NCBI GenBank assembly: GCA_017999345.1
Contig: JAGNLY010000004.1
Span: 886 to 64,885 of the forward strand
DNA: 64,000 nucleotides
DNA from: Candidatus Woesebacteria bacterium
Lineage (GTDB): Bacteria; Patescibacteriota; Microgenomatia; UBA1400; PJMF01
Direction: 5' to 3'
This document shows, piece by piece, positions 5,191 to 16,964 of this stretch (position 1 is the first letter of the stretch; each line of letters starts with the position of its first letter). The position numbers and the translations under genes are program-made. The notes beneath the pieces were generated by a model, which was given only the letters and a program-made list of their open reading frames with translations, searched no databases and was not told the DNA's origin.

Positions 5191-6369
5191 TTATTTTTCC
5201 AAAATATGTACAACTGCTGTTGCCCCACTGCCACCAACATTATGTGTCAAGCCATAGGTTTTTTCCTCAACTGCGATTGGCAATTTTTCAAGCAAATTAG
5301 CCATAAATGCAAGTTGCTTAACACCCGTTGCTCCAACTGGATGACCACAAGCTTTTAATCCTCCAGATGGATTAATCACAACTTTTCCACCATAGGTAGT
5401 TTGCTCATTAATCGTGGCCATACCACCGGTACCTTTTTCAAAAAATCCCAAATCTTCAATTGCTAAAATTTCTGCAATGGTAAAACAATCATGAACTTCA
5501 GCAAACTTAATATTTTTTGCAGAAATATTTGCATTTTTATAAGCTTCCTTTGAAGCCTTTACAGTTGCATGAAGACTTGTGAGTGATTTTCTATTTGCTA
5601 AATTTAATGAATCCTGAGCATGACCGTATGACACAATTTTTGGCTTATTAGCATATTCAGGCAAGTCTTTAGTGGTCAAAACTATTGCACTCGAACCATC
5701 AGAAACTGGAGAACAATCTAAAAGTCGCAAAGGACTTGCAACCATACTGCTTAAATTAACCTGTTCAATAGTAAAAGCTTTTCTAAATTGTGCATTTTTA
5801 TTATTCAACGCATGTTTGTGATTTTTGACTGAAACTGCAGAAAGTTGTTCCCTTGTCGTGCCATATTTATTAATATGAGCGTTAGCCAAAAGTGCATAGA
5901 GAGCTGGAAATGTACTACCATATTCAAACTCAAAATCTGAAGCAGATGACAAAATCTTTGTGATCTCATCAGAATTTAAATCGTTCATTTTCTCTACCCC
6001 GACCACCATGACTGTTTTGTATTTTCCAGAAAGCAAGGCGTTTTCTGCTTCCACAGCTGCCAAACTTCCAGAGGCGCAAGCCCCTTCAACTCTAATTGAT
6101 GGAGGGAAATGCTTAAACATCTGACTAACTGCTGCGCCCAAATGCAGTTGATTCTCAAAAATTCCTGACGCCATGTTGGCCACAAAAACAGCTTCAATTT
6201 CTTGCGGATTAAATCCTTCGTACTCAGAAATATTTGAAGCAGAATTCTTAATATTTGCAATGGCTCCAAAAACTGATTCATTGAGTAAATCATAGATAGA
6301 TTTATCCCAAAGCTCACCAAATTTTGATGTGTAAGTTCCAATAATTTTTATAGTTTTGTTGTTAGACAT
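5191..6369 (-). CDS. Thiolase (acetyl-CoA acetyltransferase, archaeal/SCP-x-like type)
   Basis: Catalytic-Cys context VEGACASGS, plus HDCFT and NPSGGLKACGHPVGATG near the C-terminus. Length 392 aa. Confidence 0.85.
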   Translation of the reverse strand: MSNNKTIKIIGTYTSKFGELWDKSIYDLLNESVFGAIANIKNSASNISEYEGFNPQEIEAVFVANMASGIFENQLHLGAAVSQMFKHFPPSIRVEGACASGSLAAVEAENALLSGKYKTVMVVGVEKMNDLNSDEITKILSSASDFEFEYGSTFPALYALLANAHINKYGTTREQLSAVSVKNHKHALNNKNAQFRKAFTIEQVNLSSMVASPLRLLDCSPVSDGSSAIVLTTKDLPEYANKPKIVSYGHAQDSLNLANRKSLTSLHATVKASKEAYKNANISAKNIKFAEVHDCFTIAEILAIEDLGFFEKGTGGMATINEQTTYGGKVVINPSGGLKACGHPVGATGVKQLAFMANLLEKLPIAVEEKTYGLTHNVGGSGATAVVHILEK

Positions 6370-6374
6370 TTCTC

Positions 6375-7445
6375 TTATTTTTCTGCTACATTTTGAATGT
6401 ATGTTTGATAATCAATTTCTTTCATTGAATTGATTTGTGAACTCACAAAATTGTTCCATTTGTTTCTGCTTGTTTCTAGGTTTTTTGTTGTCTCAAATAT
6501 AAAAGCATCACTTCCAGAACCAGAGCCATAAGAGACAAGGATGATTTTCTGTGATTTTTTTGCCACATCCAAAACTGCACTAAAAGCTAACATGCTCGCT
6601 GCGGCATAAGTATTACCTATTTTTTTAACCACCAGGCTTGGAGACAGTTGATCTTCATTAAAACCTAATTTTTTGGCTATTAAACTTGGAAATTTAGCGT
6701 TTGGGGTATGAAAAATACAGTAATCAAAATCTTTTGCTTCTAAGTTTAATTTATTCATTAATTTAGTAGCAGCGTTATAAATATGAGAAAAATATGCTGG
6801 TTCACCACTAAATCTTCCCGCATGTTCTGGATAACTCATTCCTGGCCTACGCCAAAAATCTGGAGTATCGGTTGCGATTGAAACAGTGCCCAATAATTTG
6901 GCCAAAAGATTTTCACTTCCAACTATAAATGAGGCAGACCCAGACCCGGCGGTGTATTCCAAAACATCTCCTTGTTTTGATTGCGCAGTATCAGAACCTA
7001 TGGCCAACCCATATTTTGCAAATCCTGAAGCAACGTATGATAGACAAATTTGCAGGGCTTGTGTACCAGCCTTACATGCAAATTGAAGATCAGCAAGAGA
7101 AATATTATCAGAAAGTCCTAATGCTTGTTTTACAACTGTTCCAGTTGGTTTAACAGCATAAGGATGACTTTCACTACCAATAAAAAGACAACCTATTTCT
7201 TTTTTTATTTCAAGATTATTTTTTGAATCAGCCAAATATCTTTCTATACTTTGATTGGCAGATTCCACAGAAATTGTGACTGTATCTTCATCAATTGCGG
7301 GCACACTTTTTTGAAATACTCCCAGAGATTTATAAATGTTTGCGCCATCTTTATTATGAGCGGCTTCAATAGTTTTACCTTTTATAAAATATTTGGGAAT
7401 GTATGATCCATAGGCAACAATGCCAATTTCATTAGTTTTTTTCAT
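6375..7445 (-). CDS. Hydroxymethylglutaryl-CoA synthase (short archaeal-type)
   Basis: IGIVAYGSYIPKY start, active-site context LQFACKAGTQAL, and FHTPNAKF. Length 356 aa. Lies between the thiolase and HMG-CoA reductase genes. Confidence 0.85.
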   Translation of the reverse strand: MKKTNEIGIVAYGSYIPKYFIKGKTIEAAHNKDGANIYKSLGVFQKSVPAIDEDTVTISVESANQSIERYLADSKNNLEIKKEIGCLFIGSESHPYAVKPTGTVVKQALGLSDNISLADLQFACKAGTQALQICLSYVASGFAKYGLAIGSDTAQSKQGDVLEYTAGSGSASFIVGSENLLAKLLGTVSIATDTPDFWRRPGMSYPEHAGRFSGEPAYFSHIYNAATKLMNKLNLEAKDFDYCIFHTPNAKFPSLIAKKLGFNEDQLSPSLVVKKIGNTYAAASMLAFSAVLDVAKKSQKIILVSYGSGSGSDAFIFETTKNLETSRNKWNNFVSSQINSMKEIDYQTYIQNVAEK

Positions 7446-7446
7446 C

Positions 7447-8799
7447 TTATGAATTCTTTACTTTGCCACGAAGATTCACGTTGCATCGAGCTAAATTTTC
7501 ATGCGCACTTGCTAAAGATTGATTTGTTAGCGCACAAAGTCCTGAAATCTCACCAGCTAGGGCCGCGACGCCGACTGTTAGTGCCAAAACCATTGAGCTA
7601 GCTGATTTTTTTTCAGCAGAAGTAATATTTTCCGTACCAGTATCTTTGGTAACATTTACAGCTTTGTTTTCAGCCGTACCCTCAACTTTGCTTTCAACAT
7701 CAGAATTGCTTTTAGCTTCGTCCATATTTTGAGAAATGATCAGTGATCTGGCCTGTGATTGTTTTGGCAACCACGTGCCTCCTCCTACACTACCAACACT
7801 GATAGTTGGTAAAGTCAAAGCAACATAAACTCCATCATTTTCCTCTTCAAAAGTCACCGATGCTTCGCTACCACCGACTACATGAGCTGGATCTTGGCCC
7901 GTGGCAATATAAAAAGCTGCCAAAGCGTTGGCTACATGCATATTTTGTGCCATTGAACCAGCCACATTGCTGCCAACTAAGTTCTTGGCCACGTGACTTC
8001 TAACCAAATCTTTTGCTGTAACATCAAAAATTTCTGCCAGAATTTCTTTTGATAAAAAAACTTCGACTTCAACATTAAATCCTCTGCCAAACATTCTGTT
8101 TAGAACCGAATCTTTTTTGTCTGTGCAAACATTTCCAGAAAGTGACAATAATTTTACATTTACATGATCTTCTTTTATTTTATTCCAGGCATATTTTAAA
8201 GCGATCGTAACCATGTTCATTCCCATGGCCTCATCCGTGTCAAAACTGAACCTTAAATATACATGTCTGCCTCTAATAAAAGACTGATGTGATAAAAACT
8301 TAAGATGATTACTCGTGCTTTCGCAATACTGAGCAAATGTTTTTATGTTTTTATTCATCCACTCAGAAAATTCATGTGCTTTGAAATTATTCTCACATTT
8401 AAAAACCAAAGCTCTGGCCATTCCAACTTTGTTAATAAAAACAGAAAGACTGTCTGATAAATTTATTGCCTTACAGCCTCTATTTATTGAGGCCACTAAA
8501 GCTCCTTCTGTAGTTGCAAGAGGAATAAACAACCCATTTTTAACGTCTGTAATTTCTTCGACAGTGCCACCAACAAAATTATTAACTTTTACGGGACCAG
8601 CTAGCCCCATTGGAATCTCAACACTTCCAATCATGTTTTCACAATTAGTAGTGCCCGTTCGATCAACAGGAAAATTAATATTAAATAATTCTTTAAAATC
8701 GCCAACTCTTGAGTTTTTTACAATCGCCTGTCTTTTTTCCAGCTTTTCAGACTCTGATAAATTTTCATCTCGAATATATAAACTAAAATGACTAGACAT
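7447..8799 (-). CDS. hmgA: HMG-CoA reductase, class-I-like
   Basis: TTEGALVAS, DEAMGMNMV and GSVGGGTWL resemble the class I motifs EGCLVAS, DAMGMN and GGGT. A low-complexity insert lies near the C-terminus (DEAKSNSDVESKVEGTAENKAVNVTKDTGTENITSAEKK). Confidence 0.85.
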   Translation of the reverse strand: MSSHFSLYIRDENLSESEKLEKRQAIVKNSRVGDFKELFNINFPVDRTGTTNCENMIGSVEIPMGLAGPVKVNNFVGGTVEEITDVKNGLFIPLATTEGALVASINRGCKAINLSDSLSVFINKVGMARALVFKCENNFKAHEFSEWMNKNIKTFAQYCESTSNHLKFLSHQSFIRGRHVYLRFSFDTDEAMGMNMVTIALKYAWNKIKEDHVNVKLLSLSGNVCTDKKDSVLNRMFGRGFNVEVEVFLSKEILAEIFDVTAKDLVRSHVAKNLVGSNVAGSMAQNMHVANALAAFYIATGQDPAHVVGGSEASVTFEEENDGVYVALTLPTISVGSVGGGTWLPKQSQARSLIISQNMDEAKSNSDVESKVEGTAENKAVNVTKDTGTENITSAEKKSASSMVLALTVGVAALAGEISGLCALTNQSLASAHENLARCNVNLRGKVKNS

Positions 8800-8853
8800 A
8801 TATATCTAGTCGCAATTTTAGTTAAAAACCATGCAAAATCTGTGGAGAAATTA

Positions 8854-9507
8854 TTATTTTGAGTTAATTGATTCTAGATAACTTTTCAATCGATCGTCAT
8901 TCAGCATCATAGCAGACCACGGAGCCAGCAAAACTTTTTTGTTATTCAGATTAATTTTTATTGGAGCGGTTTTTTGTTTTAACAACTCTATTGAAAAATC
9001 TAATGTTTCCTTTGGACTTGGAATTGAGCTGTTTTTTTGGATTTCATTAATCAAAAAATTAAAATCAACCCAACAATAATCACTGGCTTCCTCGTGATTC
9101 AACTCAACTTTGCCGTTATATTTTTCAACAAAAACTTGATCGAACTCAAACTCTCCATACTTACTATTACAATATGCTTTGTAAATAAACTGATAAATTG
9201 GTTTTAGTTGCAATTTTTCACCAGCTTCATTTTGATAAATAACCCCAATTTCTTCCCTCAACCTTCTGATGGCACAATCTTCAAATGTCTCGTTTGGTCT
9301 AACATTGCCACAAATCGCGTTTCCCCACCAACCTGCACCAACAATTTTTTGCACGCTCCTCTTTTGTAAGAGCACTTCATTTTTATCATTAATTAGCCAA
9401 ACAGAAGATGCTCGATGAAGTTTAGCCGGATGCTCATGGGCCTTATATTTGTCCATTTCTCCAAGAACATTATTGTTTTCGTCTACCAAAGTTATATTTG
9501 TTGTCAT
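8854..9507 (-). CDS. idi: Isopentenyl-diphosphate delta-isomerase, type 1 (Nudix fold)
   Basis: HRASSVWLIN..LLQKRS..K..GAGWWGNAICGNVRPNETFEDCAIRRLREEIGV parallels E. coli Idi (WTNSVCGHP..ESNEDAVIRRCRYELGV). Confidence 0.85.
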   Translation of the reverse strand: MTTNITLVDENNNVLGEMDKYKAHEHPAKLHRASSVWLINDKNEVLLQKRSVQKIVGAGWWGNAICGNVRPNETFEDCAIRRLREEIGVIYQNEAGEKLQLKPIYQFIYKAYCNSKYGEFEFDQVFVEKYNGKVELNHEEASDYCWVDFNFLINEIQKNSSIPSPKETLDFSIELLKQKTAPIKINLNNKKVLLAPWSAMMLNDDRLKSYLESINSK

Positions 9508-9848
9508 TATTTTTTCTTAAAAGCTAGATTAAATCTTAATAACAAATAAAAAATCATTATTTGCCAATAAATACAGTAAAAAGTAATAAAATTTGAAACA
9601 AAAGTTAACCAGTCGCAATTAAAATACAAGCTTTGCGAACAGGAAAAGACATATCCAACTAATGGAACGATTAAAAACTTCCAAAAAATTGTAATTAACA
9701 TCAATAAGATACTTGGGATTAATGACATCCATACAAATACTTTTTCATTAACCAAAGACTGCATTGTCTGATATGGATGCAAAACCAATCCAAAAGAAAT
9801 TTGTCCGAGTGAATAAGCTATAGATAAAAAAACTTGGCGCTTTTTCAT
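9507..9848 (-). CDS. Small polytopic membrane protein, unknown function
   Basis: 113 aa with 3-4 hydrophobic segments. Its stop overlaps the idi start by 1 nt and its start overlaps the upstream ORF by 4 nt (ATGA). Confidence 0.5.
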   Translation of the reverse strand: MKKRQVFLSIAYSLGQISFGLVLHPYQTMQSLVNEKVFVWMSLIPSILLMLITIFWKFLIVPLVGYVFSCSQSLYFNCDWLTFVSNFITFYCIYWQIMIFYLLLRFNLAFKKK

Positions 9849-10045
9849 ATAATTTCAATTAAAATTGATGATAGTAAAGCCAAAATGAACAGAGTTTGCC
9901 AAGAATATGTGCCCATAAAAGAAGTTATTTCGTCAAAAAATTCTGGAAAAATTCTGCCTTCGTTTATTGTTTTTTGAATTTTGGCCTGTTTTTGTAGTTC
10001 TTCTAAAAAATTATCATTCATAATCATAAAAATTACTCTTGCCAA
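9845..10045 (-). CDS. Small C-terminally anchored membrane protein, possible anti-sigma factor (position only)
   Basis: About 60-66 aa with one C-terminal TM (TLFILALLSSILIEII). It lies immediately downstream of, or overlapping, the sigma gene. The start is uncertain: ATG at 10045, 10027 or 10021. Confidence 0.4.
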   Translation of the reverse strand: MARVIFMIMNDNFLEELQKQAKIQKTINEGRIFPEFFDEITSFMGTYSWQTLFILALLSSILIEII

Positions 10046-10551
10046 ATAGTTCGAAATTCATTTCTCGCCCTAAACAGATCTGATTCCACAGATTTAATAC
10101 TTCTTCCTAATTCTTTTGCAATTGCAGATACTTTTTTGCCATCAACATATTTGAGCATCAATAACTCTCCGTAATAATTTTTCATTTTATTAATAACCGC
10201 GCTAACTTTTTGAGAAATTTCTGCAGAATCAGAAATATTTTCAATCATTAATAATTCTGAAAGATGGGTGGTTTTTAATGCTTTCTTTGCATATTTTTTT
10301 CTAAAATAATCAGCAATTTCATGATGCGCAATTGAGTTCATCCATGTCCAGATACTAGATCTAGCCATAAATAAAGGCAAATGTTTTAAGCAATTTAGAA
10401 AAGTTTGTTGAACAATTTCTTCAGCATCTTGCTTGTCAGAAACTTTGGACAAAACTACTGTCAACAACCTACCATTATAGGTATTAAACCAATAATTGAC
10501 TGCTTTTGGATTGCCTTTTTTAAGCTTGCTGATTAGTGTTTTTTCTTCCAT
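10033..10551 (-). CDS. RNA polymerase sigma-70 family factor, ECF-like
   Basis: 172 aa. Region 2-like EEIVQQTFLNCLKHLPLF...WTWMNSIAHHEIADYFRKK. Region 4 HTH-like GKKVSAIAKELGRSIKSVESDLFRARNEF. Confidence 0.8.
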   Translation of the reverse strand: MEEKTLISKLKKGNPKAVNYWFNTYNGRLLTVVLSKVSDKQDAEEIVQQTFLNCLKHLPLFMARSSIWTWMNSIAHHEIADYFRKKYAKKALKTTHLSELLMIENISDSAEISQKVSAVINKMKNYYGELLMLKYVDGKKVSAIAKELGRSIKSVESDLFRARNEFRTIWQE

Positions 10552-10580
10552 TTTACCTTGTTTACCTGAGTTACCAACAT

Positions 10581-10590
10581 ACTATATAAT
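10581..10590. promoter_or_regulatory. Overlapping divergent -10 elements (ACTATATAAT)
   Basis: TATAAT at 10585-10590 on the + strand lies 10 nt before the ATG at 10601. TATAGT on the - strand (10581-10586) lies upstream of the sigma gene start at 10551. The intergenic region is only 49 bp. Confidence 0.4.
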
Positions 10591-10600
10591 AACATCACAT

Positions 10601-10966
10601 ATGTCTTTTAAGTTAATTCCAACTGTTTATGCACAATGTGGAGCTGGTGGAGGTGGTGGTATTAACTTAGGCGACTGTCTAATCTTAGGTGATGGCGCAA
10701 AAGTAAGCGATGTTTACGACACACCTGCAACCCTAGTAAATATCCTCATCAGAAACATGATTCCAATCTCCGGTGTCATTATTTTTATCATGATTTTCTT
10801 GGCAGGCTTCAAATTTATCACAAAAGGTAAAGAAGGCATGGAAGAAGCTAAAAAAATTATAACCACGACAATCATTGGCTTTTTAGTGATGATCTCAGCA
10901 TATTGGATTGTACAAATTATTTCGTTACTAACTGGAATCCAAATTCCAGGAATAACTGTAGGCTAA
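10601..10966 (+). CDS. VirB2/TrbC-topology pilin-like protein (P2)
   Basis: The start is placed at ATG 10601 because the longer ORF start at 10496 overlaps the sigma gene. N-terminus MSFKLIPTVYAQCGAGGGGG. Module TM1, FKFITKGKEGMEEAKKIITTTIIGF, TM2. Confidence 0.7.
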   Translation: MSFKLIPTVYAQCGAGGGGGINLGDCLILGDGAKVSDVYDTPATLVNILIRNMIPISGVIIFIMIFLAGFKFITKGKEGMEEAKKIITTTIIGFLVMISAYWIVQIISLLTGIQIPGITVG

Positions 10967-10970
10967 TACT

Positions 10971-11369
10971 ATGATTAAATTTCAATTAATCAAACCAGCT
11001 TTTGCCCAAGAATTTGATGCATTGATTGGCACTGTCAGAGCCCCTCAAGCTGTCGGAACAATGAATATTGAAGCCGGTGGTGAAGGAAGTATTGGAATTC
11101 TTTTAATGATCTCTAGGCTAATTCAAATTGTTACTGTTGTTGCGAGTGTTTGGGTTGCGGTCAATGTTGTTATTGCTGCGTACACCTACCTAGCCGGTGG
11201 TGGAAAACCAGACAGTCATCAAAAAGTATCAGACATTCTTAGTATGAGTGTCATAGGTTTAATAATTATCGTAAGTTCATACACAATCGCCGGATTAATT
11301 GGCTTGCTATTTTTTGGCGATGCTATGTTTATTATAAATCCTACTATCTCACCAGCTGGAGGAATTTAA
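10971..11369 (+). CDS. VirB2/TrbC-topology pilin-like protein (P3)
   Basis: N-terminus MIKFQLIKPAFAQ. Module TM1, YLAGGGKPDSHQKVSDILSMSVIGL, TM2. 4-nt gap from P2. Confidence 0.7.
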   Translation: MIKFQLIKPAFAQEFDALIGTVRAPQAVGTMNIEAGGEGSIGILLMISRLIQIVTVVASVWVAVNVVIAAYTYLAGGGKPDSHQKVSDILSMSVIGLIIIVSSYTIAGLIGLLFFGDAMFIINPTISPAGGI

Positions 11370-11370
11370 G

Positions 11371-11934
11371 ATGATAAGCAGCATATTAAATATTAAAAAA
11401 TACTTTACTTTCCTGATAACCTTTCTGTTTTTGTTAAATTTTTTAGTATTAATGACCCCAAATAAAATATTAGCTGGAGGCGCATGCTCAGCTGCTGGAG
11501 AATGTTCTGGAAATCAAATTTGTGTTTGGATTGCAGATCCAACGCAACCAGCTGGTGGTTATTTGTCAAACACTGGTGGACCATGCGGTTCTTCTGCAAT
11601 TGGAGGAGTTGCGGCTCCAACAGCGATTGCAAACATTAATTCAACGACCGGCATTGGACTTTTAGCATTTATTTCTAAATTACTCAATTTCGGAGCAATA
11701 GTTGGCGGAATTATAGTAATGTTAAATTTTGTTTCCGCAGGAATGATGTATATAACTGGGGCCGGAAATGCAGAAGTGCACACAAAAGTTAGGGATAAAA
11801 TCACCTATAGTATTATTGGAATAGTTATTATTGTTTCTGCCTATACTATCGTTGGCCTAATTGGATTAATATTCTTTAAAGATGTAACCTACTTACTTAA
11901 TCCTCGTCTACAGGGTGCATTTGATGGTATATAA
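11371..11934 (+). CDS. VirB2/TrbC-topology pilin-like protein with 4-Cys ectodomain (P4)
   Basis: Signal peptide, then GGACSAAGECSGNQICVW...GGPCGSS. Module TM1, MMYITGAGNAEVHTKVRDKITYSIIGI, TM2. GGAGGA SD at 11357-11362. Confidence 0.7.
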   Translation: MISSILNIKKYFTFLITFLFLLNFLVLMTPNKILAGGACSAAGECSGNQICVWIADPTQPAGGYLSNTGGPCGSSAIGGVAAPTAIANINSTTGIGLLAFISKLLNFGAIVGGIIVMLNFVSAGMMYITGAGNAEVHTKVRDKITYSIIGIVIIVSAYTIVGLIGLIFFKDVTYLLNPRLQGAFDGI

Positions 11935-11967
11935 TTAATAAGTTTGTTAAAGTAAAAAAATAAAAAT

Positions 11968-12348
11968 ATGTTTTTACCAACACTAATTGCTCAATTTGGA
12001 AATGGAATCACTTCTCCATCTGAAGCATATACTGAAAATGGCACCACTCAAGAAGGAGTCTTGGCAAATTTTGACCTAATTATTTCAAACCTTCTTGGAT
12101 TGTTTACGATTCTTGGCGCCCTAATCTTTGTTATTTACTTTTTAATCGCTTCTATTCAATGGATAACTGCTGGTGGCGATGCCGGAAAGCTTACTCAAGC
12201 AAGAGAAAAAATGCTTCAAGGAGTAATTGGTCTAGTAATTTTAGTCGGTGCTTATGGAATATTAGGTCTAATTGGCACAATTGTCGGTATAGATATAATT
12301 AACCCAGTAACTCAAATAGAAAAAATAATTCCTACCGTAGGACCTTAA
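11968..12348 (+). CDS. VirB2/TrbC-topology pilin-like protein (P5)
   Basis: N-terminus MFLPTLIAQ, with an in-frame TAA at 11953. Module TM1, IQWITAGGDAGKLTQAREKMLQGVIGL, TM2. Confidence 0.7.
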   Translation: MFLPTLIAQFGNGITSPSEAYTENGTTQEGVLANFDLIISNLLGLFTILGALIFVIYFLIASIQWITAGGDAGKLTQAREKMLQGVIGLVILVGAYGILGLIGTIVGIDIINPVTQIEKIIPTVGP

Positions 12349-12351
12349 ATA

Positions 12352-13146
12352 ATGAAAAAAATTAAATCAATCATACTCGGCGCAGTAAGTTTTTTAACCC
12401 TAATGGTCGTGAGTGTTTCTGCATTCACTAATCCAGTTGTTGGCGAAGCTTTGGGCGCTGATGCTGAAAGCGCTACTAGTGGCGCTACATTTGTTAGCTA
12501 TTTTGTCACTATTTGGCAAGCTTTTATTACCATCGGAGCAATTTTAGTTTTAATTTATTTCTTGTGGGGCGCAATTGAATGGGTCACTGCAGGAGCTGAC
12601 AAAAGCATTCTTGATAGAGCTAGAAATAGAATTACTCAAGCAATGATTGGTCTTTTGATCTTGATTAGTGCTTTTGTAATTATCGAATTTGTAAGTCAAC
12701 TTTTCTTTGGAGATGAGTTCTCTATTCTAAACTTCCAATTTGTGGCTCCATTAGAGCAAGGCGTAGATTCAAGTCTTTTGCACAAATATAATTTATTTGC
12801 ACCTCAAATTGCGCATGCAGTTGATATAAACATTGGCTCAACAGCACAAGGCCAAGCCCTTCCAGGCACTGCCGACTACACAGCCGGCGATGGCGAGGCA
12901 GGTTTTGGACTTTTCATGACAAGAGTTTTAAATATTGTCTTAGTTGTTGGTTCAATTATTGTTCTCTTTTATCTAGTCTGGGGTGGATTAGAATGGGTTA
13001 GTTCTGGTGGTGACAAGAGCAAAGTTGAAGCAGCAAGAACAAAAATTACGCAGTCCATGATTGGATTAATTGTTATGGCCGCCGCCATAGCACTGTTTGT
13101 AATGCTTCAAGGTTTCTTGGGAGTTGAACTATTTACATTCAACTAA
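12352..13146 (+). CDS. Tandem (fused) double VirB2/TrbC-topology pilin (P6)
   Basis: One 264-aa ORF carries two complete modules. The first is LWGAIEWVTAGADKSILDRARNRITQAMIGL. The second is VWGGLEWVSSGGDKSKVEAARTKITQSMIGL. Each is flanked by its own pair of hydrophobic helices. Confidence 0.7.
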   Translation: MKKIKSIILGAVSFLTLMVVSVSAFTNPVVGEALGADAESATSGATFVSYFVTIWQAFITIGAILVLIYFLWGAIEWVTAGADKSILDRARNRITQAMIGLLILISAFVIIEFVSQLFFGDEFSILNFQFVAPLEQGVDSSLLHKYNLFAPQIAHAVDINIGSTAQGQALPGTADYTAGDGEAGFGLFMTRVLNIVLVVGSIIVLFYLVWGGLEWVSSGGDKSKVEAARTKITQSMIGLIVMAAAIALFVMLQGFLGVELFTFN

Positions 13147-13177
13147 CAGGCAACTGGGAGCAAAAAAGGAAATAAAC

Positions 13178-13207
13178 TTGACGAAATTTCTAATTAGCAG
13201 GTATAAT
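13178..13207 (+). promoter_or_regulatory. Sigma70-type promoter for pilin P7
   Basis: TTGACG (13178-13183), 18 nt spacer, TATAAT (13202-13207). AAGGAG SD at 13248-13253 precedes the ATG at 13257. Confidence 0.55.
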
Positions 13208-13256
13208 TAGTTATTCAGCATAGAAAACTGATATATAAAAGTAAATTAAGGAGACT

Positions 13257-13625
13257 ATGACAAAAAAATTAAAAAGCTTAGCCGTAACTGCAGCTGCCTT
13301 AGCAGCATCAAGTAGCAGAGTGCTCGCAGCAACAGCAATTGAAGTTCCAGATGCATTCTTTACCGATGTGGGTGCTTTAATTAGTAAAGCATTGAATTTT
13401 GTTTTGATTATTGGTGCTCTTTTAGTTTTCATGTACCTCATCTGGGGTGGTATTGAGTGGATTACCTCAGGCGGCGATAAAGGAAAGACAGAATCAGCAC
13501 GTAACAAAATTACTGCTGCTATCGTTGGTTTGATCGTTCTTGCATCAGCATGGGCAGTCTTACTCTTGGTCCTAGGATTCTTAAACACAGACCTAGACAC
13601 TTTGTTTACAGAAGCAGGAGTCTAA
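13257..13625 (+). CDS. VirB2/TrbC-topology pilin-like protein (P7), candidate major pilin
   Basis: Signal peptide ...SSRVLA. Module IWGGIEWITSGGDKGKTESARNKITAAIVGL. It is the only paralog with its own consensus promoter, a strong SD and a dedicated terminator. Confidence 0.75.
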   Translation: MTKKLKSLAVTAAALAASSSRVLAATAIEVPDAFFTDVGALISKALNFVLIIGALLVFMYLIWGGIEWITSGGDKGKTESARNKITAAIVGLIVLASAWAVLLLVLGFLNTDLDTLFTEAGV

Positions 13626-13649
13626 TAGCTAATTGTAAATTTGAATTTA

Positions 13650-13677
13650 AACCCCCGCCAATGGCGGGGGTTTTTGA
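13650..13677 (+). terminator. Rho-independent terminator
   Basis: CCCCCGCC (13652-13659), loop AATG, GGCGGGGG (13664-13671), followed by TTTTT. Confidence 0.85.
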
Positions 13678-13731
13678 TTTTCCTCAATAATAAATTTACT
13701 GGTATAATTCAATTAGTATAGTTCAACAAAT

Positions 13732-14157
13732 ATGAAAAAGAATTCCATTAAAAATAATTTGATTGCTATTTTTATTACGCTTTTTGCAAGTTTTTACCTA
13801 GCCTCCCCCGTCATGGCTCAAACAGTTGAGTGGACAGGTGAAGGTAATGTTTGTACGGGTGGAGCTGACAATGATGTGGCTACTATTCAGGGCTTAGAAT
13901 GTTTAATTGCTAATGTTTTTATGGTAATCATCACCTTAATTGGTTTGGCTGCATTTGTAATGTTCATAGTTGGATCTATTCAATGGCTTTTGGCTGGCAG
14001 TAGCGCAGAGGGAACAAAAAAAGCCAAAGACACTTTCACATATGCAGTTATCGGAATTGTTGTAGCTCTGAGTGCCTTCATAGCACTTAATTTAATAGCT
14101 GGATTTACTGGCGTTGAAGCAATAAAACAATTTATAATCCCTGCCTCTAACTCTTAA
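13732..14157 (+). CDS. VirB2/TrbC-topology pilin-like protein with Cys pair (P8)
   Basis: Signal peptide ending PVMAQ, then GNVCTGG...GLECL. Module IQWLLAGSSAEGTKKAKDTFTYAVIGI. TGGTATAAT extended -10 at 13700-13708. Confidence 0.7.
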   Translation: MKKNSIKNNLIAIFITLFASFYLASPVMAQTVEWTGEGNVCTGGADNDVATIQGLECLIANVFMVIITLIGLAAFVMFIVGSIQWLLAGSSAEGTKKAKDTFTYAVIGIVVALSAFIALNLIAGFTGVEAIKQFIIPASNS

Positions 14158-14162
14158 AAAAA

Positions 14163-16964
14163 TTGTATAATAGGTTTGTGTTTAAAAACAAATCTATTTT
14201 ATTAACCTTAGTTTTTTCGTTTTCTATTTTTGTTGGCTCTGTCTATTCTGTTTTTGCCCTAGATACTGTTGATGCGAACGCCGAAGGCGCAGCAGCGGGT
14301 TCTGAGACTACTGGTGGAGTATTAACGGGCAGCAGTGCCTATGAAACTGATCAGTATCGAACCTATAATACCAAAGGATATCCTGATTTTGACGATAAAT
14401 TTTATGTATCCACAATTAAATCTGTTCTTCAGGCTGATGACAATAAAGATGCCGAAGCAGCTGGCGCTTATGAAGATATAAGACAAGAGTTAGCACTAAC
14501 TGGCTATGAAACATATTGCTTACAAGAAAATGTAAAAATTGAACCTCAATATAACTCCAAGGAAATAATTGAAAGATTTTTAGAACTTTATCCAGAAGGA
14601 GTTAATCTTAGATCATTTTCAAGAGAAGTTCTTGGAATGGATAATGCTAACTTTCCAATATGGCGTGATCTAGGAGGTAAACAATTCTTAATGAACTCGC
14701 TTGAAGAATACTTTGGTTTTAAAGATTTATATGTAGGTGACGCTCCTAAAGCTGAAATTAACTCAGCAGCTATTAACTCTCTTCTCTCTCAAAGACAATC
14801 CTGTGTACAGGGGTGGAAAACTTTAGGAGCTCAAAGAAGGGATTGTGATAAACTTGAAGATCCAAGCACTTGTGAATTAATTAAAAGAAGAATTCCTGGA
14901 TCTGGATATGAGGTCCATGACATAATGGGTCTATTAAATGACTTTACCGGAGGAGGCTGGGCCGGTGGTGATGAAAAAAAAGGGGAAGCCTTAGCAGTCA
15001 AGTGGTGTGACACAATTTTTAGTGAACCTGAAGACCCTTCAAAATCAACTTTAACTGAAGCACAAAAAGCAATTCTCAAACCAATTAAAGATACAATTAT
15101 CAATGTTCCAACGTACATTGATAAAGCTTATAGATTTGGTTTTATTATTGCTGTTGTTGAAACGAGGCAACCTGGAAATCAACCTATTGGTGATTTTTTA
15201 ACAGAAAATGAAGAAGAATCTACGGTAATCTGGAATTTCTTTACTAAAAAAACTCAAGTTGTTCCTTGGGATGAAGTTCTAGTTGTTGCTTTTAAGCTTC
15301 CTGATATTGGAACAAATAAAGGTGGCGGAGCTCTTGAGAAATGGAATGATCCTCTAGATTTAACTAGAATAGTTTTATCTAATAAAGATGAGCTCGCACT
15401 ACATGAAGAAGCAGCCAAAAAAAAGCGAACCAGTACTCTTGAAGCTGCTATAGCTGCCTCAAATCAATCACCTGATAGTAGGGCATATTGTTATAGCGGC
15501 GATTTTCCATCTGGTGGTGGAACAAGAAGTTGCACGGTACCCTTGCCAAAAGCACTCACAGATTTTGTCAATGCGTCTGTTGTAAAGTGTGATCCAAAAG
15601 TTGAGCCCGTAAGCGAAATTAGTGATTTAGCTGGACTCAGGGATCCTTCCGATACAGGAAAAATATTTACAAAAGAAAATGGTGGCCAAATATTAATCAA
15701 TCTATTTTTAGATTCGACATATAATGTAAATGGATTAAGCCCTGATTACGCTGCAATTGTTCCAGATCACGAAGCTATCAAATCTATTTGGACAGTTACT
15801 CCTGAAAATTGGCCTCCAAAAGGAAATGACAGCTTTGTTCATTTTTATTTAGTCTATCCAGTTGGCTATGAACTTTCCACTATTGAACAAGAAATATCTG
15901 GTGCTTTTTTCAACAAAGAGCAGATAGCTTCAATGGGTACTGATCCAAGTATTGTGGAAAAATTTGAGGTTACTGGACAAACTCAAATCCTAGAAGCTGG
16001 AAAAGCGGGTTGGAAATATACAGATTGGCCAGCAACCCGAGCTTGGGAATGTGGACCATTAAAGATATTAGGAATTGAAACTGGCCTGCCAAAACCATGT
16101 ACTAAAAATCCAAGCTTAACCGCAAAACAAGAAGGCGCAAAAATCGATGTATTAGGAGGTAGACTCAGCTGGTGGTTAAGAAAAGTTCAGGTGGCTCTAA
16201 GTGCAAGATCAAGCTTCGCTCACTCTTACTTTGAATCATGCAAAACTATGGAAGAATTTTTATTAGGAAAATGTGCTGGCGCTGCAGACGGTGGTGGCGG
16301 CAGTGGTAATGGCAATGGAGTAGAACTTAGTTGCGATGAACTCAAACAACAAAAAGCAGAGCTGCCAACCATGAACAAATTGATGAAAATGACTTGCGAG
16401 ATTGCGAATAAAGATTCTAATGATGCCCAGCTACTTTGGGGACTTTTGCAGATTGAAGGAAGTCCTTTCCTGAGAGAAATATTAAAGCGTCAGAATGCAG
16501 GAAGTTGCAGTGGAGATAGTTGCGGTTCAATGAGCTGCGCAGATCTATTAACAAATTCATGCGGAGCTTCAAATATAATTGGAGTTTTGATTCCTCAATG
16601 TATTGATCCAATCGCATGCTCTCAAGCTGCATACTTTATTGATAGCACTGATGATCCTTGGATCAATGAGTCAAGAGAAAACCCACAGGTTGCTTGTGAT
16701 GTAGCAACTTCTTTAGATTATATTCTTAGAAAGAGAAAATCTGAAAAAACTTGGCTGACAGATCAATATATTGCTGCAAATGGATCAAGTCCATCCACTC
16801 AACAACTCTACTATATGATGGCAGGCAGAAACTATGGTGTTCCTCTTGAGAATTTAGTGCAGCCAGCTTGTGGCAACTATGATCCAGTTCAAGGTTGTGG
16901 TGGAGCCAATTATTGTGTATGTGCAATGGATACTTTTAAATTAAACTGCGGAGGCGGTAAATAA
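14163..16964 (+). CDS. Large Cys-rich exported protein; C-terminal region resembles a lytic transglycosylase (VirB1-like role proposed)
   Basis: N-terminal signal/anchor. More than 30 Cys. The C-terminus reads LLWGLLQIEGSPF (E codon at 16455), CGASNIIGVLIPQ and YYMMAGRNYG, which resembles the SLT ES/GLMQ/AYNAG pattern. The start could be GTG 14178 instead of TTG 14163. Confidence 0.45.
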   Translation: MYNRFVFKNKSILLTLVFSFSIFVGSVYSVFALDTVDANAEGAAAGSETTGGVLTGSSAYETDQYRTYNTKGYPDFDDKFYVSTIKSVLQADDNKDAEAAGAYEDIRQELALTGYETYCLQENVKIEPQYNSKEIIERFLELYPEGVNLRSFSREVLGMDNANFPIWRDLGGKQFLMNSLEEYFGFKDLYVGDAPKAEINSAAINSLLSQRQSCVQGWKTLGAQRRDCDKLEDPSTCELIKRRIPGSGYEVHDIMGLLNDFTGGGWAGGDEKKGEALAVKWCDTIFSEPEDPSKSTLTEAQKAILKPIKDTIINVPTYIDKAYRFGFIIAVVETRQPGNQPIGDFLTENEEESTVIWNFFTKKTQVVPWDEVLVVAFKLPDIGTNKGGGALEKWNDPLDLTRIVLSNKDELALHEEAAKKKRTSTLEAAIAASNQSPDSRAYCYSGDFPSGGGTRSCTVPLPKALTDFVNASVVKCDPKVEPVSEISDLAGLRDPSDTGKIFTKENGGQILINLFLDSTYNVNGLSPDYAAIVPDHEAIKSIWTVTPENWPPKGNDSFVHFYLVYPVGYELSTIEQEISGAFFNKEQIASMGTDPSIVEKFEVTGQTQILEAGKAGWKYTDWPATRAWECGPLKILGIETGLPKPCTKNPSLTAKQEGAKIDVLGGRLSWWLRKVQVALSARSSFAHSYFESCKTMEEFLLGKCAGAADGGGGSGNGNGVELSCDELKQQKAELPTMNKLMKMTCEIANKDSNDAQLLWGLLQIEGSPFLREILKRQNAGSCSGDSCGSMSCADLLTNSCGASNIIGVLIPQCIDPIACSQAAYFIDSTDDPWINESRENPQVACDVATSLDYILRKRKSEKTWLTDQYIAANGSSPSTQQLYYMMAGRNYGVPLENLVQPACGNYDPVQGCGGANYCVCAMDTFKLNCGGGK

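What the first reader, a model, noticed from the sequence alone, without database searches (positions are those of the whole stretch)
12352..13146. Fused double pilin: two complete pilin modules in one polypeptide
The 264-aa ORF holds two full copies of the module, each with its own flanking helices:
- ...LVLIYFLWGAIEWVTAGADKSILDRARNRITQAMIGLLILISAFVII...
- ...IVLFYLVWGGLEWVSSGGDKSKVEAARTKITQSMIGLIVMAAAIALF...

The two are joined by a ~75-aa linker. A covalent pilin dimer with four TM helices is unusual for VirB2-type pilins. It could act as a filament-nucleating, capping or base-adaptor subunit.
Basis: seen in the sequence. Interest (0 to 1): 0.55.

Follow-up and report, generated by a model that had tools for sequence, protein, structure and literature searches.

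The report
Two neighbouring pilin genes fused
In one small clade of ultrasmall (Patescibacteria) bacteria, two neighbouring genes for membrane "pilin" subunits of a type IV secretion system have fused into one real, conserved gene. This is a modest new variant of a known pilin gene array, and it hints that these pilins work as fixed partners.

Summary
ORF 12352-13146 (+) encodes 264 aa with two PF18895 T4SS_pilin modules, 36% identical to each other (E 2e-19).

It is not an assembly artefact:
- A second assembly is identical over 2,612 nt.
- At least nine orthologues (54-65% identity, 259-277 aa) keep the frame open across the junction.

It is not an internal duplication either. The halves are orthologues of two distinct neighbouring pilin genes, A and B, the fifth and sixth modules of a conserved array. 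In the four more distant relatives examined, A and B are separate, abutting genes, and B has its own signal peptide.

Flanking markers place the six fused loci in one clade (100% bootstrap), so one fusion event is most likely. The fusion removed the charged and hydrophobic parts of B's signal peptide but kept its cleavage-site end (P-6, A/V-3, A-1).

Charge distribution predicts four membrane helices with the junction outside the cell.

My reading is one precursor that delivers A and B 1:1 to the secretion system. Whether it is then cut at A156|V157 or stays tethered is open.

Other junctions of the array are fused in other lineages, and proteins with 3-6 modules exist. I found no paper describing any of this.

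Verdict: new variant of a known kind, moderate interest.

The parts
12352..13146 (+). Fused A-B pilin gene, 264 aa plus stop. Identical to NCBI hypothetical protein KA111_02325, Candidatus Woesebacteria.
   Evidence: ORF list and sequence. Two PF18895 stretches. Exact match P0001.
12352..12423 (+). Signal peptide of module A (MKKIKS / IILGAVSFLTLMVV / SVSA|F). Predicted cleavage is after A24.
   Evidence: 3 K/R in aa 1-6, then a hydrophobic stretch, then SVSA. A24 F25 N27 P28 V29 are invariant in the fused orthologues. The cleavage itself is inferred.
12424..12750 (+). Module A, mature part (aa 25-133): acidic N-tail, hairpin helices at about aa 52-79 and 97-118 with a basic loop at 80-96, and the conserved C-tail FGDEFSILNFQFVAP.
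   Evidence: Helices in the AF2 model. Loop has 4 K/R. Regions are 64-75% identical among the fused proteins. Best match of 85 homologues.
12751..12786 (+). Variable junction (aa 134-145, LEQGVDSSLLHK). This is the only real linker.
   Evidence: 18% pairwise identity. 14 of 24 alignment columns have gaps. 12-26 aa long in orthologues. pLDDT below 50.
12787..12819 (+). Remnant of the end of module B's former signal peptide (aa 146-156, YNLFAPQIAHA). P at -6, A at -3 and A at -1 relative to the putative cleavage point A156|V157.
   Evidence: 67% identity. P151 and A156 are invariant. It aligns with the c-region of the signal peptides of split B pilins, e.g. IKTIFMPHIVQA|VELNIG in P0012.
12820..13143 (+). 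Module B, mature part (aa 157-264): N-tail VDINIG...PGTADY...GEAGFG, hairpin helices at about aa 187-214 and 234-256, basic loop at 215-233.
   Evidence: AF2 helices. Loop has 4 K/R. Best Pfam stretch is aa 190-249. Best match of 73 homologues.
10628..12348 (+). Upstream pilin paralogues of the same array: p1 (10628-10966; the ORF finder starts it at TTG 10496), p2 (10971-11369), p3 (11371-11934), p4 (11968-12348). They are tightly packed; the p4 stop is 3 nt before the fused gene.
   Evidence: PF18895 hits. 1:1 orthologues in the same order in all loci examined.
13257..14157 (+). Downstream pilin paralogues p6 (13257-13625) and p7 (13732-14157). p6 has a promoter-like site at 13178-13207 and a terminator-like hairpin at 13649-13673.
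   Evidence: PF18895 E 1.8e-10 and 2.3e-8. Pattern scan. Conserved 80-281 nt gaps around p6.
14163..16964 (+). 933-aa protein that always follows the array (873-1174 aa in relatives). No Pfam family.
27942..32140 (+). Type IV secretion core genes on the same strand: PrgI/VirB3-like (27942-29129), a 313-aa ORF, and a VirB4-like ATPase (30104-32140). dnaA follows at 32261.
   Evidence: PF12666 PrgI E 1.4e-5 (26.0 bits, just under the cut-off of 27). PF19044, PF12846 and PF03135 on the ATPase, and dnaA and dnaN.
10033..10551 (-). ECF-type sigma factor, divergent from the array and conserved beside it in relatives. A possible regulator; not tested.
   Evidence: Sigma70_r2 and r4_2. Synteny.

Best explanation
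The ORF is a genuine, selectively maintained fusion of two adjacent and anciently diverged VirB2-like pilin genes, A and B. They belong to the conserved pilin array (p1 p2 p3 p4 | A B | p6 p7) of a chromosomal type IV secretion system in a Patescibacteria (Microgenomatia/Woesebacteria-like) genome.

Shown:
- In the nearest unfused relatives, A and B abut or overlap by 1-4 nt, in different frames. B there carries its own full signal peptide, which ends in AxA just before (V/I)ELNIG.
- In one clade, A's stop codon, B's start codon and the charged and hydrophobic parts of B's signal peptide are gone. That is about 25 residues in the comparison with L007.
- What remains is a short variable junction plus the cleavage-site end of the old signal peptide.

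Inferred (how it works):
- The protein is exported by A's signal peptide, which is cut after A24.
- Hairpin A inserts with its basic loop in the cytoplasm. Its second helix runs from inside to outside and carries the acidic junction across the membrane, so hairpin B can insert without a signal peptide of its own. That redundancy is why B's signal peptide could be lost.
- The product is a four-helix membrane precursor that delivers A and B together, in a fixed 1:1 ratio, to the VirB4/PrgI-type machine that uses these pilins.

Open step: I put about 50% on the precursor then being cut at the retained site A156|V157, by a signal-peptidase-type enzyme, into two ordinary pilins. I put about 40% on it staying tethered by the flexible extracellular junction and occupying two neighbouring positions in the assembly.
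For: It is real:
- Identical DNA in an independent assembly.
- Nine full-length orthologues at 54-65% identity.
- The same array position in WIN, L003, L004, L005, L014, L015 and the P0008 contig.

It is a fusion of two paralogues:
- The halves are only 36% identical.
- A-type and B-type sequences separate with 100% bootstrap.
- Of 171 homologues, 85 match A best and 73 match B best, and nearly all have a single module.
- Split A + B genes sit at the same array position in L001/L007, L008, L009 and L019.

The fusion happened once and is derived:
- In a tree of flanking markers (1,351-1,374 columns, excluding A and B), the six fused loci form one side of a bipartition with 100% bootstrap, against four split loci.
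- Only one cluster at 50% identity in a library of 1.84 billion representatives is a full-length fused orthologue.

The signal peptide was lost but its end was kept:
- Compare split MKTKNKSIYKKLNISVFFVFFFIFATFNTVLLPNNFIKTIFMPHIVQA|VELNIG with fused ...APAPAEEASLEKFDFFAPPVAYA|VELNIG.
- In the fused clade, -6 is P in 10 of 10 sequences, -3 is A in 9 and V in 1, and -1 is A in 10 of 10. Positions -2, +1 and +2 vary, and P0005 has an insertion right after the site.

Topology:
- The loops at aa 80-96 and 215-233 have 4 K/R each.
- The stretch 119-186 has 1 K/R against 8 D/E.
- The model shows two hairpins and a disordered junction.

Secretion-system context:
- VirB4-like and PrgI-like genes lie next to dnaA, as published for Patescibacteria (PMC12102498).
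- Pilin arrays are essential in Southlakia epibionticum (PMC10633639, PMC12857230).
Against: - No protein-level data exist. Export, topology, cleavage and assembly are all inferred.
- The AF2 model is poor overall (pLDDT 54, pTM 0.38), so it says nothing about how A and B pack.
- The NJ tree of the A and B modules themselves did not recover the fused sequences as one group, with bootstrap below 10% on 116 columns. The single-event claim therefore rests on the flanking markers.
- Against cleavage: the hydrophobic core that a type I signal peptidase normally needs next to its site is gone. The nearest membrane helix ends about 38 residues upstream. Other fusions in the family have no AxA at their junctions.
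- Against permanent tethering: the pattern of conservation at -6, -3 and -1 is hard to explain otherwise.
- That these proteins form a pilus at all has not been shown for any Patescibacteria.
Confidence: 0.75

Rival explanations
1. Permanently covalent heterodimer. The junction is never cut, and A-B enters the assembly as one four-helix unit occupying two adjacent subunit positions. This is the first reader's structural premise, without the specific cap or nucleator role.
For: - The hydrophobic part of B's signal peptide is gone, so canonical signal-peptidase recognition is unlikely.
- Other two-module fusions lack any AxA at the junction: P0040 has ...QQDTW|ITNP, and P0038 and P0103 have none either.
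- Proteins with 3-6 modules have short plain linkers, so covalent concatenation is tolerated in this family.
- In solved VirB2/TraA pili both termini lie on the outer face (established knowledge), so a 12-26 aa flexible tether plus a 30-aa N-tail could reach a neighbouring subunit.
Against: - The 11 residues before A156|V157 are 67% conserved and follow the -6/-3/-1 rule exactly.
- The residues just after the site vary and accept an insertion. That fits a scissile site better than a passive tether.
Confidence: 0.4
2. The fusion creates a special subunit with a role of its own, such as filament nucleator, cap or base adaptor.
For: - Each paralogue has a conserved 1:1 orthologue across the clade, at 38-85% identity, while paralogues within one genome share only 19-31%. 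That suggests specialised, non-redundant roles.
- p6 looks like a separately transcribed unit, so the other pilins could be minor ones.
Against: - The same A and B are separate genes in most relatives, with the rest of the array unchanged. Whatever A and B do, they do it unfused.
- Nothing distinguishes the fused clade's locus otherwise.
- No data bear on position within a filament.
Confidence: 0.1
3. Assembly or sequencing artefact, or a decaying pseudogene: really two genes with a missed stop or frameshift.
For: - In relatives, A and B abut or overlap and lie in different frames, so a single indel could mimic a fusion.
- One MAG (L006) does carry a frameshift, but it is inside module A and not at the junction.
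Against: - Identical sequence in a second assembly.
- Nine orthologues from different samples keep one frame, with whole-codon indels and 54-65% identity.
- The fused forms lack about 25 residues of signal peptide. That is a structured difference, not a single-base error.
- Both modules are well conserved, 58-75% in the helices.
Confidence: 0.02
4. Recent internal duplication of one pilin module within a gene.
For: Homotypic proteins with 4-6 near-identical modules exist elsewhere in the family: P0068, P0112, P0135, P0150, P0155.
Against: - The halves are only 36% identical.
- Each half is closer to its own orthologue group in other genomes, with margins of 30-78 bits for A-type and 5-48 bits for B-type singles.
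- The split counterparts are syntenic.
Confidence: 0.02

Closest known systems
VirB2-like pilin arrays of Patescibacteria T4SS (Pfam PF18895). Examples: the essential pilin series within SEML1_0006-0019 of Ca. Southlakia epibionticum ML1, and the 441 arrays of 2-11 genes reported in PMC12102498.
   Same: - Same Pfam family.
- Same tandem array of divergent paralogues.
- Same MPF-FATA-like VirB4/PrgI context beside dnaA (PMC12102498, PMC10633639, PMC12857230).
   Different: - Those papers describe arrays of separate genes. The text I searched and read mentions only VirB3-VirB4 fusions, as absent, and no fused pilins.
- Here two array members are one gene.
- The strict 1:1 orthology of each array member across relatives fits fixed, distinct roles better than the antigenic or host-range variation suggested in PMC12102498.
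Canonical VirB2/TrbC/TraA conjugative pilins (Pfam PF04956; Agrobacterium VirB2, RP4 TrbC, F TraA).
   Same: - Small helical hairpin with a short basic loop.
- A long signal peptide ending in AxA, often followed by Q.
- Both termini outside the membrane and the loop inside (established knowledge). This matches the charge pattern here.
- Neighbours p4 and p7 give sub-threshold PF04956 hits, E 5e-4 and 7e-4.
   Different: - One hairpin per polypeptide in all characterised cases, against two here.
- PF04956 does not hit the fused protein.
- No sequence or fold match to solved pilins was obtained.
- The host has a single membrane.
Bartonella Trw system with multiple tandem trwL (VirB2) copies.
   Same: Tandem arrays of sequence-divergent VirB2 genes in a T4SS that lacks a coupling protein (PMC12857230).
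   Different: - The Trw copies are separate genes, interpreted as variable surface pili.
- Here the paralogues are individually conserved, and two are fused.
Multi-hairpin proteolipid (c) subunits of rotary ATPases: four-helix V-type c subunits and archaeal concatenated c subunits. This is an analogy from general knowledge, not homology.
   Same: A two-helix membrane hairpin that normally assembles as many separate copies has been covalently concatenated by gene fusion or duplication, while the assembly is kept. The only weak PDB sequence hits of the module profile were c subunits, at E 0.03, which I treat as compositional.
   Different: - Unrelated family and function.
- Ring rotor versus presumed helical filament or channel.
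- No membership is claimed.
RP4 TrbC maturation by TraF, a signal-peptidase homologue that trims and cyclises the pilin (general knowledge).
   Same: It is a precedent for a LepB-like enzyme cutting a pilin tail outside the classical signal-peptide context. The cleavage sub-model needs that.
   Different: - No TraF-like or LepB-like gene was found in the window by motif search.
- Cyclisation cannot be tested here.

Membership tests
PF18895 T4SS_pilin (Patescibacteria VirB2-like pilins) | Match to the family HMM above Pfam's gathering score | tested here: met
   30.2 bits against a cut-off of 26.6, E 4.8e-7, in two stretches. The precomputed PF18895 hit is present on all fused orthologues.
PF18895 T4SS_pilin (Patescibacteria VirB2-like pilins) | Two hydrophobic helices forming a hairpin around a short basic loop (..GGDK..AR..IT..) | tested here: met
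   Present twice. Helices 45-79/84-122 and 181-217/222-256. Hydrophobic windows, and 4 K/R in each loop.
PF18895 T4SS_pilin (Patescibacteria VirB2-like pilins) | Encoded in a pilin array linked to VirB4/PrgI-type T4SS genes | tested here: met
   The array has seven pilin genes carrying eight modules, at 10628-14157. The PrgI-like gene is at 27942 and the VirB4-like gene at 30104, on the same strand. dnaA is at 32261. The PrgI score of 26.0 is just below the cut-off of 27.
PF18895 T4SS_pilin (Patescibacteria VirB2-like pilins) | One module per polypeptide, each with its own N-terminal leader | tested here: not met
   Two modules. Module B has only the last 11 residues of a leader. Of the 171 relatives fetched, 146 have one module and 25 have two to six.
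Canonical VirB2/TrbC (PF04956) | Match to PF04956 above its gathering score | tested here: not met
   No PF04956 hit on the fused protein. Neighbours p4, p7 and p6 score 20.8, 20.1 and 13.7 bits against a cut-off of 27.9.
Canonical VirB2/TrbC (PF04956) | Sequence or fold similarity to solved conjugative pilins | tested here: inconclusive
   The profile search of PDB sequences gave only chance-level ATP synthase c hits. Foldseek with the low-confidence model gave nothing at E <= 0.001. A simple hairpin and a poor model make this a weak test.
Canonical VirB2/TrbC (PF04956) | Polymerises, with phospholipid, into an extracellular pilus built by the T4SS | not testable with these tools
   No pilus has yet been demonstrated for any Patescibacteria T4SS. 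PMC12857230 calls it a possibility.
Polyprotein or precursor cut by a type I signal peptidase | Small residues at -1 and -3, and a helix breaker near -6, on the outer side of the membrane | tested here: met
   In 10 fused sequences, A is at -1 in all, A or V at -3 in all, and P at -6 in all. The outside location follows from the charge distribution and is inferred.
Polyprotein or precursor cut by a type I signal peptidase | A hydrophobic core (h-region) immediately upstream of the site | tested here: not met
   Only NFFA remains. The preceding membrane helix ends about 38 residues upstream. Neighbours p1, p2 and p4 have equally short leaders that end in AxA|Q.
Polyprotein or precursor cut by a type I signal peptidase | Demonstrated cleavage products | not testable with these tools
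   This needs proteomics or expression of a tagged protein.

The most novel reading that the evidence does not exclude
The fusion is one sign of a general, undescribed property of Patescibacteria VirB2-like pilins: they act as a fixed hetero-oligomeric set, not as interchangeable variants, and the machine accepts covalently concatenated hairpins.

What I saw in support:
- Different neighbouring pairs of the same conserved array are fused in different lineages. These are p2/3+p4 (P0165), p4+A (P0040, P0133), A+B (this clade), and a B-like module with a p6/B-like module (P0038).
- Elsewhere in the family single polypeptides carry 3, 4, 5 or 6 modules, that is up to 12 membrane helices.

If these stay uncut, either the T4SS extracts multi-hairpin units from the membrane into a filament, or these 'pilins' build a membrane-embedded ring or channel rather than an extruded pilus. 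Either way they would parallel the concatenated c subunits of rotary ATPases.
Probability: 0.3. Interest if true: 0.7.

Novelty: new variant of a known kind. Interest (0 to 1): 0.5.

Why it matters
Patescibacteria make up a large share of bacterial diversity. Their type IV secretion system and its pilin array are essential in the one species tested (PMC10633639). What the array builds, and why it has so many pilins, is unknown.

A conserved fusion of two specific array members suggests that A and B are obligate partners needed in equal amounts. So do fusions at other junctions and the strict one-to-one orthology of every array member. This points to a defined multi-pilin assembly rather than a wardrobe of variants.

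The fusion also gives a clean natural experiment on membrane-protein biogenesis. A signal peptide became dispensable once an upstream hairpin could export the segment, yet its cleavage-site end stayed under selection.

The fused and the multi-module forms are practical handles for structural work and for testing how a T4SS takes pilins out of a membrane.

For this window alone, the finding is a narrow-clade gene fusion in a known family. It is worth a note, not a headline.

Tried and rejected
1. Structure. AlphaFold2 on the nine fused orthologues gave mean pLDDT 54 and pTM 0.38. It is good enough to see two hairpins and a disordered junction, but not their packing.
2. Fold search. Foldseek of that model against the PDB gave no match at E <= 0.001. 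Uninformative.
3. PDB sequence search. A profile of the eight window modules hit only ATP synthase c subunits (E 0.03-0.2) and sensory rhodopsin transducers (E above 1). I treat these as compositional. No solved VirB2 or TraA was reached.
4. Deeper alignment. I built a 22-sequence alignment for a second prediction. MAFFT split the A-type singles across both halves, so I ran no further search on it.
5. Module tree. An NJ tree of the A and B modules alone separated A from B at 100% but did not resolve the fused sequences as one group. I replaced it with a flanking-marker tree. One worrying split B pilin, P0026, grouped near the fused B modules. I traced it to locus L019, which falls outside the fused clade.
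6. Signal peptidase. A motif search for a type I signal peptidase in the six-frame translation of the window found nothing credible. This says nothing about the rest of the genome.
7. Internal start. I considered an internal start codon for module B (TTG at L142). It has no conserved counterpart and no well-placed ribosome-binding site in orthologues, so I dropped it.
8. Literature. I searched PF18895/T4SS_pilin, fused/tandem/poly-pilin terms, and Saccharibacteria VirB2 pilus cryo-EM. No paper in the library describes multi-module VirB2-like pilins. Subscription journals are not covered.
9. Module typing. Blast typing of the second modules of P0040, P0038 and P0103 is ambiguous between A, B and p6. 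I assigned them partly by array position and N-terminal motifs, so these labels are provisional.
Full report
WHAT IS THERE

ORF 12352-13146 (+) encodes 264 aa. Pfam PF18895 (T4SS_pilin) matches above threshold, in two stretches. The two halves align at 36% identity, E 2e-19.

The protein is identical to NCBI hypothetical protein KA111_02325 of a Candidatus Woesebacteria MAG. The window is chromosomal. It carries dnaA, dnaN, yidC, leuS and ribosomal protein L25. A PrgI/VirB3-like gene (27942-29129) and a VirB4-like ATPase (30104-32140) lie just upstream of dnaA. This is the arrangement published for Patescibacteria type IV secretion systems (PMC12102498).

The ORF is the fifth of seven consecutive pilin genes:
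- p1, 10628-10966
- p2, 10971-11369
- p3, 11371-11934
- p4, 11968-12348
- the fused gene, 12352-13146
- p6, 13257-13625
- p7, 13732-14157

A conserved 933-aa protein follows the array. A divergent ECF-type sigma factor precedes it.

IS IT REAL?

Yes.
- A Logan assembly of run SRR11088486 is identical to the window over 2,612 nt, including the whole ORF.
- A search of 5.8 billion protein clusters returned eight full-length orthologues besides the protein itself (P0002-P0009, 259-277 aa, 54-65% identity). They come from different samples.
- Loci L003, L004, L005, L014, L015 and the P0008 contig have the fused gene at the same place in the same array.
- Length differences at the junction are whole codons.
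- L006 has a frameshift, but it lies inside module A. Its junction is fused like the others.

WHAT ARE THE TWO HALVES?

They are not duplicates of each other.

In a tree, the N-terminal halves group with one set of single-module pilins (A-type) and the C-terminal halves with another (B-type). The two groups separate with 100% bootstrap. Of the 171 homologues fetched, 85 match A best and 73 match B best, with margins of 30-78 bits for A-type and 5-48 bits for B-type singles. 146 of the 171 have a single module.

In four more distant relatives the array is the same, but A and B are separate genes:
- L001/L007: 141 + 156 aa, overlapping in TAATG.
- L008: 140 + 173 aa, 4-nt overlap.
- L009: 145 + 144 aa, 16-nt gap.
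- L019: 139 + 143 aa, 4-nt gap.

I built a tree from p1-p4, p6, p7 and the large downstream protein (1,351-1,374 gap-free columns, A and B excluded). It puts all six fused loci on one side of a bipartition with 100% bootstrap. L007 and L019 are the nearest split outgroups.

In the library of 1.84 billion 50%-identity representatives, only one cluster (P0006) is a full-length fused orthologue. Split A-type and B-type pilins fill most of the top 150 hits.

The simplest history is one fusion in the ancestor of a narrow clade. The module-only tree was too short to show this, so the claim rests on the flanking markers.

ANATOMY OF THE JUNCTION

Split B pilins start with an ordinary signal peptide whose end is AxA, directly before the mature (V/I/Q)E(L)N(I/F)G. 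Examples:
- MKTKNKSIYKKLNISVFFVFFFIFATFNTVLLPNNFIKTIFMPHIVQA|VELNIG
- MTKIFIALFISFLTLTGSAYA|QEPLELNFG

Fused proteins read ...FSILNLEFIAP-APAEEASLEK-FDFFAPPVAYA|VELNIG. The charged and hydrophobic parts of the signal peptide are gone. The last 11 residues remain and align with the c-region of the split forms.

Among the fused proteins, pairwise identity by region is:

| Region | Identity |
|---|---|
| Membrane helices | 58-75% |
| Loops | 71-72% |
| A's C-tail | 74% |
| B's N-tail | 63% |
| Signal-peptide remnant (aa 146-156) | 67% |
| Variable junction (aa 134-145, 12-26 residues with indels) | 18% |

Within the remnant, P at -6 and A at -1 are invariant. Position -3 is A in nine sequences and V in one. 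Positions -2, +1 and +2 vary, and one orthologue has a two-residue insertion immediately after the site. That is the signature of a type I signal-peptidase site.

TOPOLOGY (INFERRED)

- Residues 1-24 look like a signal peptide (3 K/R, a hydrophobic stretch, SVSA|F).
- The two hairpin loops carry 4 K/R each.
- The N-tail of A has 0 K/R and 3 D/E. The whole 119-186 stretch has 1 K/R and 8 D/E.
- By the positive-inside rule, the loops are cytoplasmic and the tails and junction are outside. This is the known topology of VirB2/TraA propilins.
- The AF2 model agrees on two hairpins and a disordered junction, but it is otherwise of low confidence.

This explains why the fusion is viable. The second helix of A runs from inside to outside and exports the junction, so B's own signal peptide became redundant and could be deleted.

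MECHANISM AND ITS OPEN STEP

The robust part is this: one Sec-exported precursor delivers A and B, in a 1:1 ratio and side by side, to the T4SS. I give this about 0.75.

Whether the precursor is then cut at A156|V157 is open.
- For cutting: the conservation pattern above. In addition, p1, p2 and p4 in every genome carry 9-13-residue N-termini that end in the same kind of motif, such as MFLPTLIA|Q, with no hydrophobic core. One B-type pilin (P0075) uses exactly such a short leader. If those are processed, the enzyme does not need a classical signal peptide.
- Against cutting: the hydrophobic core is missing and the nearest membrane helix ends about 38 residues upstream. Other fusions in the family have no such motif.
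- I put about 50% on cutting and about 40% on a permanent tether.

BEYOND THIS GENE

Other members of the family are fused too:
- P0040 (L010) and P0133 (L017) join a p4-like module to an A-like module, at the p4/A position of otherwise canonical arrays. A's signal peptide is completely gone there, and no AxA remains (...QQDTW|ITNP...).
- P0165 (L012) joins a p2-like module to a p4-like module and is followed by an A-like gene.
- P0038 (L018) follows an A-type gene and joins a B-like module to a p6/B-like module.
- P0030, P0039 and P0069 have three modules plus a Cys-rich C-terminal domain.
- P0135 and P0150 have four modules, P0155 has five, and P0068 and P0112 have six.
- P0068 sits inside a pilin array (L013).

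Some module types are provisional, because blast scores for A, B and p6 are close.

Each array member has a 1:1 orthologue across all loci, at 38-85% identity. Paralogues within the window share only 19-31%. Together these observations fit a fixed set of distinct partners better than a collection of interchangeable variants. This is inference, not demonstration.

COMPARISON WITH WHAT IS KNOWN

Arrays of VirB2-like pilins in Patescibacteria are published (PMC10633639, PMC12102498, PMC12857230). They are essential in Southlakia epibionticum, and no pilus has yet been seen.

None of these papers, and nothing else in the searchable library, mentions fused or multi-module VirB2-like pilins.

The protein is a member of PF18895. 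It does not reach the PF04956 threshold, and I could not link it to solved pilins by sequence or fold.

The closest working analogy for covalently joined hairpins is the multi-hairpin c subunit of rotary ATPases. This comes from general knowledge and does not imply homology.

VERDICT

Its functional guess is unsupported, and its 'two copies' wording is misleading.
- The feature is a new variant of a known kind: a clade-specific gene fusion inside a known pilin array.
- It has a neat biogenesis logic and a useful hint about pilin partnership.
- Interest is 0.5.

Noticed in passing
window 13178-13673: p6 (13257-13625) looks like its own transcription unit. TTGACG-18-TATAAT lies at 13178-13207. 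An 11-bp hairpin with 8 G-C pairs plus a T-run lies at 13649-13673. In all ten loci p6 is flanked by gaps of 80-281 nt upstream and 82-680 nt downstream, while most other array genes abut. p6 is also the best conserved pilin at long range (64% to L009). It is a candidate major pilin.
   Followed up: partly
window 10628-10663, 10971-11009, 11968-11994: p1, p2 and p4 begin with conserved 9-13-residue N-termini that end in AxA|Q (MSFKLIPTVYAQ, MIKFQLIKPAFAQ, MFLPTLIAQ). These are too short to be Sec signal peptides. Orthologues sometimes carry a full signal peptide that ends in the same motif (L007 p2: MKILKSLFLTLISFFTIKPVFAQ). This may be a dedicated short-leader maturation site.
   Followed up: partly
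window 10496-10966: The mechanical ORF for p1 starts at TTG 10496 and overlaps the sigma-factor gene on the opposite strand. All orthologues start at the internal MSFK(L/F) = 10628, which is the likely true start.
   Followed up: yes
window 9507-10551 (- strand): An ECF-type sigma factor (10033-10551) and two small hydrophobic ORFs (9845-10045, 66 aa; 9507-9848, 113 aa) are transcribed divergently from the pilin array. They are conserved beside it in most loci examined. They could be a sigma/anti-sigma pair controlling the array.
   Followed up: no
window 14163-16964; L004 6277-8934, L005 8135-10879, L007 8036-11560, L008 7993-11511: The large protein after the array has a conserved part of about 600-740 aa (38-60% identity) but different N- or C-terminal extensions in different genomes. 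It has no Pfam hit. The window's C-terminus contains an LLWGLLQIEGSPF stretch that recalls lytic transglycosylases. That resemblance is from memory and was not tested.
   Followed up: no
L010 203-919, L017 748-1467, L012 173-889, L018 287-1081: Other neighbouring pairs of the same array are fused in other lineages: p4-like + A-like (P0040, P0133), p2-like + p4-like (P0165), and B-like + p6/B-like (P0038). The junctions lack an AxA motif.
   Followed up: partly
P0068 (L013 1777-3435), P0112, P0155, P0135, P0150, P0030, P0039, P0069: Single polypeptides carry 3-6 PF18895 modules, that is up to 12 predicted membrane helices. The three-module ones carry long Cys- and Pro-rich C-terminal domains. 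P0068 lies inside a pilin array.
   Followed up: partly
L006 30-874: The Paceibacterota MAG Bin_61_66 has a frameshift inside module A of its fused gene (called as 93 + 217 aa). This is either an assembly error or a decaying copy. The A-B junction itself is intact.
   Followed up: no
L009 7299-7952: The most distant split relative has an extra 217-aa pilin gene with a p6-like C-terminal module, inserted between p6 and p7.
   Followed up: no
window 11371-11934, 10628-10966, 13732-14157: p3, p1 and p7 carry cysteine pairs or clusters in their predicted extracellular N-tails (for example GGACSAAGECSGNQICVW...GPCGSS in p3). These may form disulfide-stabilised ectodomains. A and B have no cysteines.
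   Followed up: no
window 5191-9507 (- strand): Mevalonate-pathway genes (HMG-CoA reductase at 7447-8799, then a NUDIX/IPP-isomerase-like gene at 8854-9507) sit next to the sigma factor and pilin array. This synteny is conserved in L001, L003, L015, L019 and the P0008 contig.
   Followed up: no
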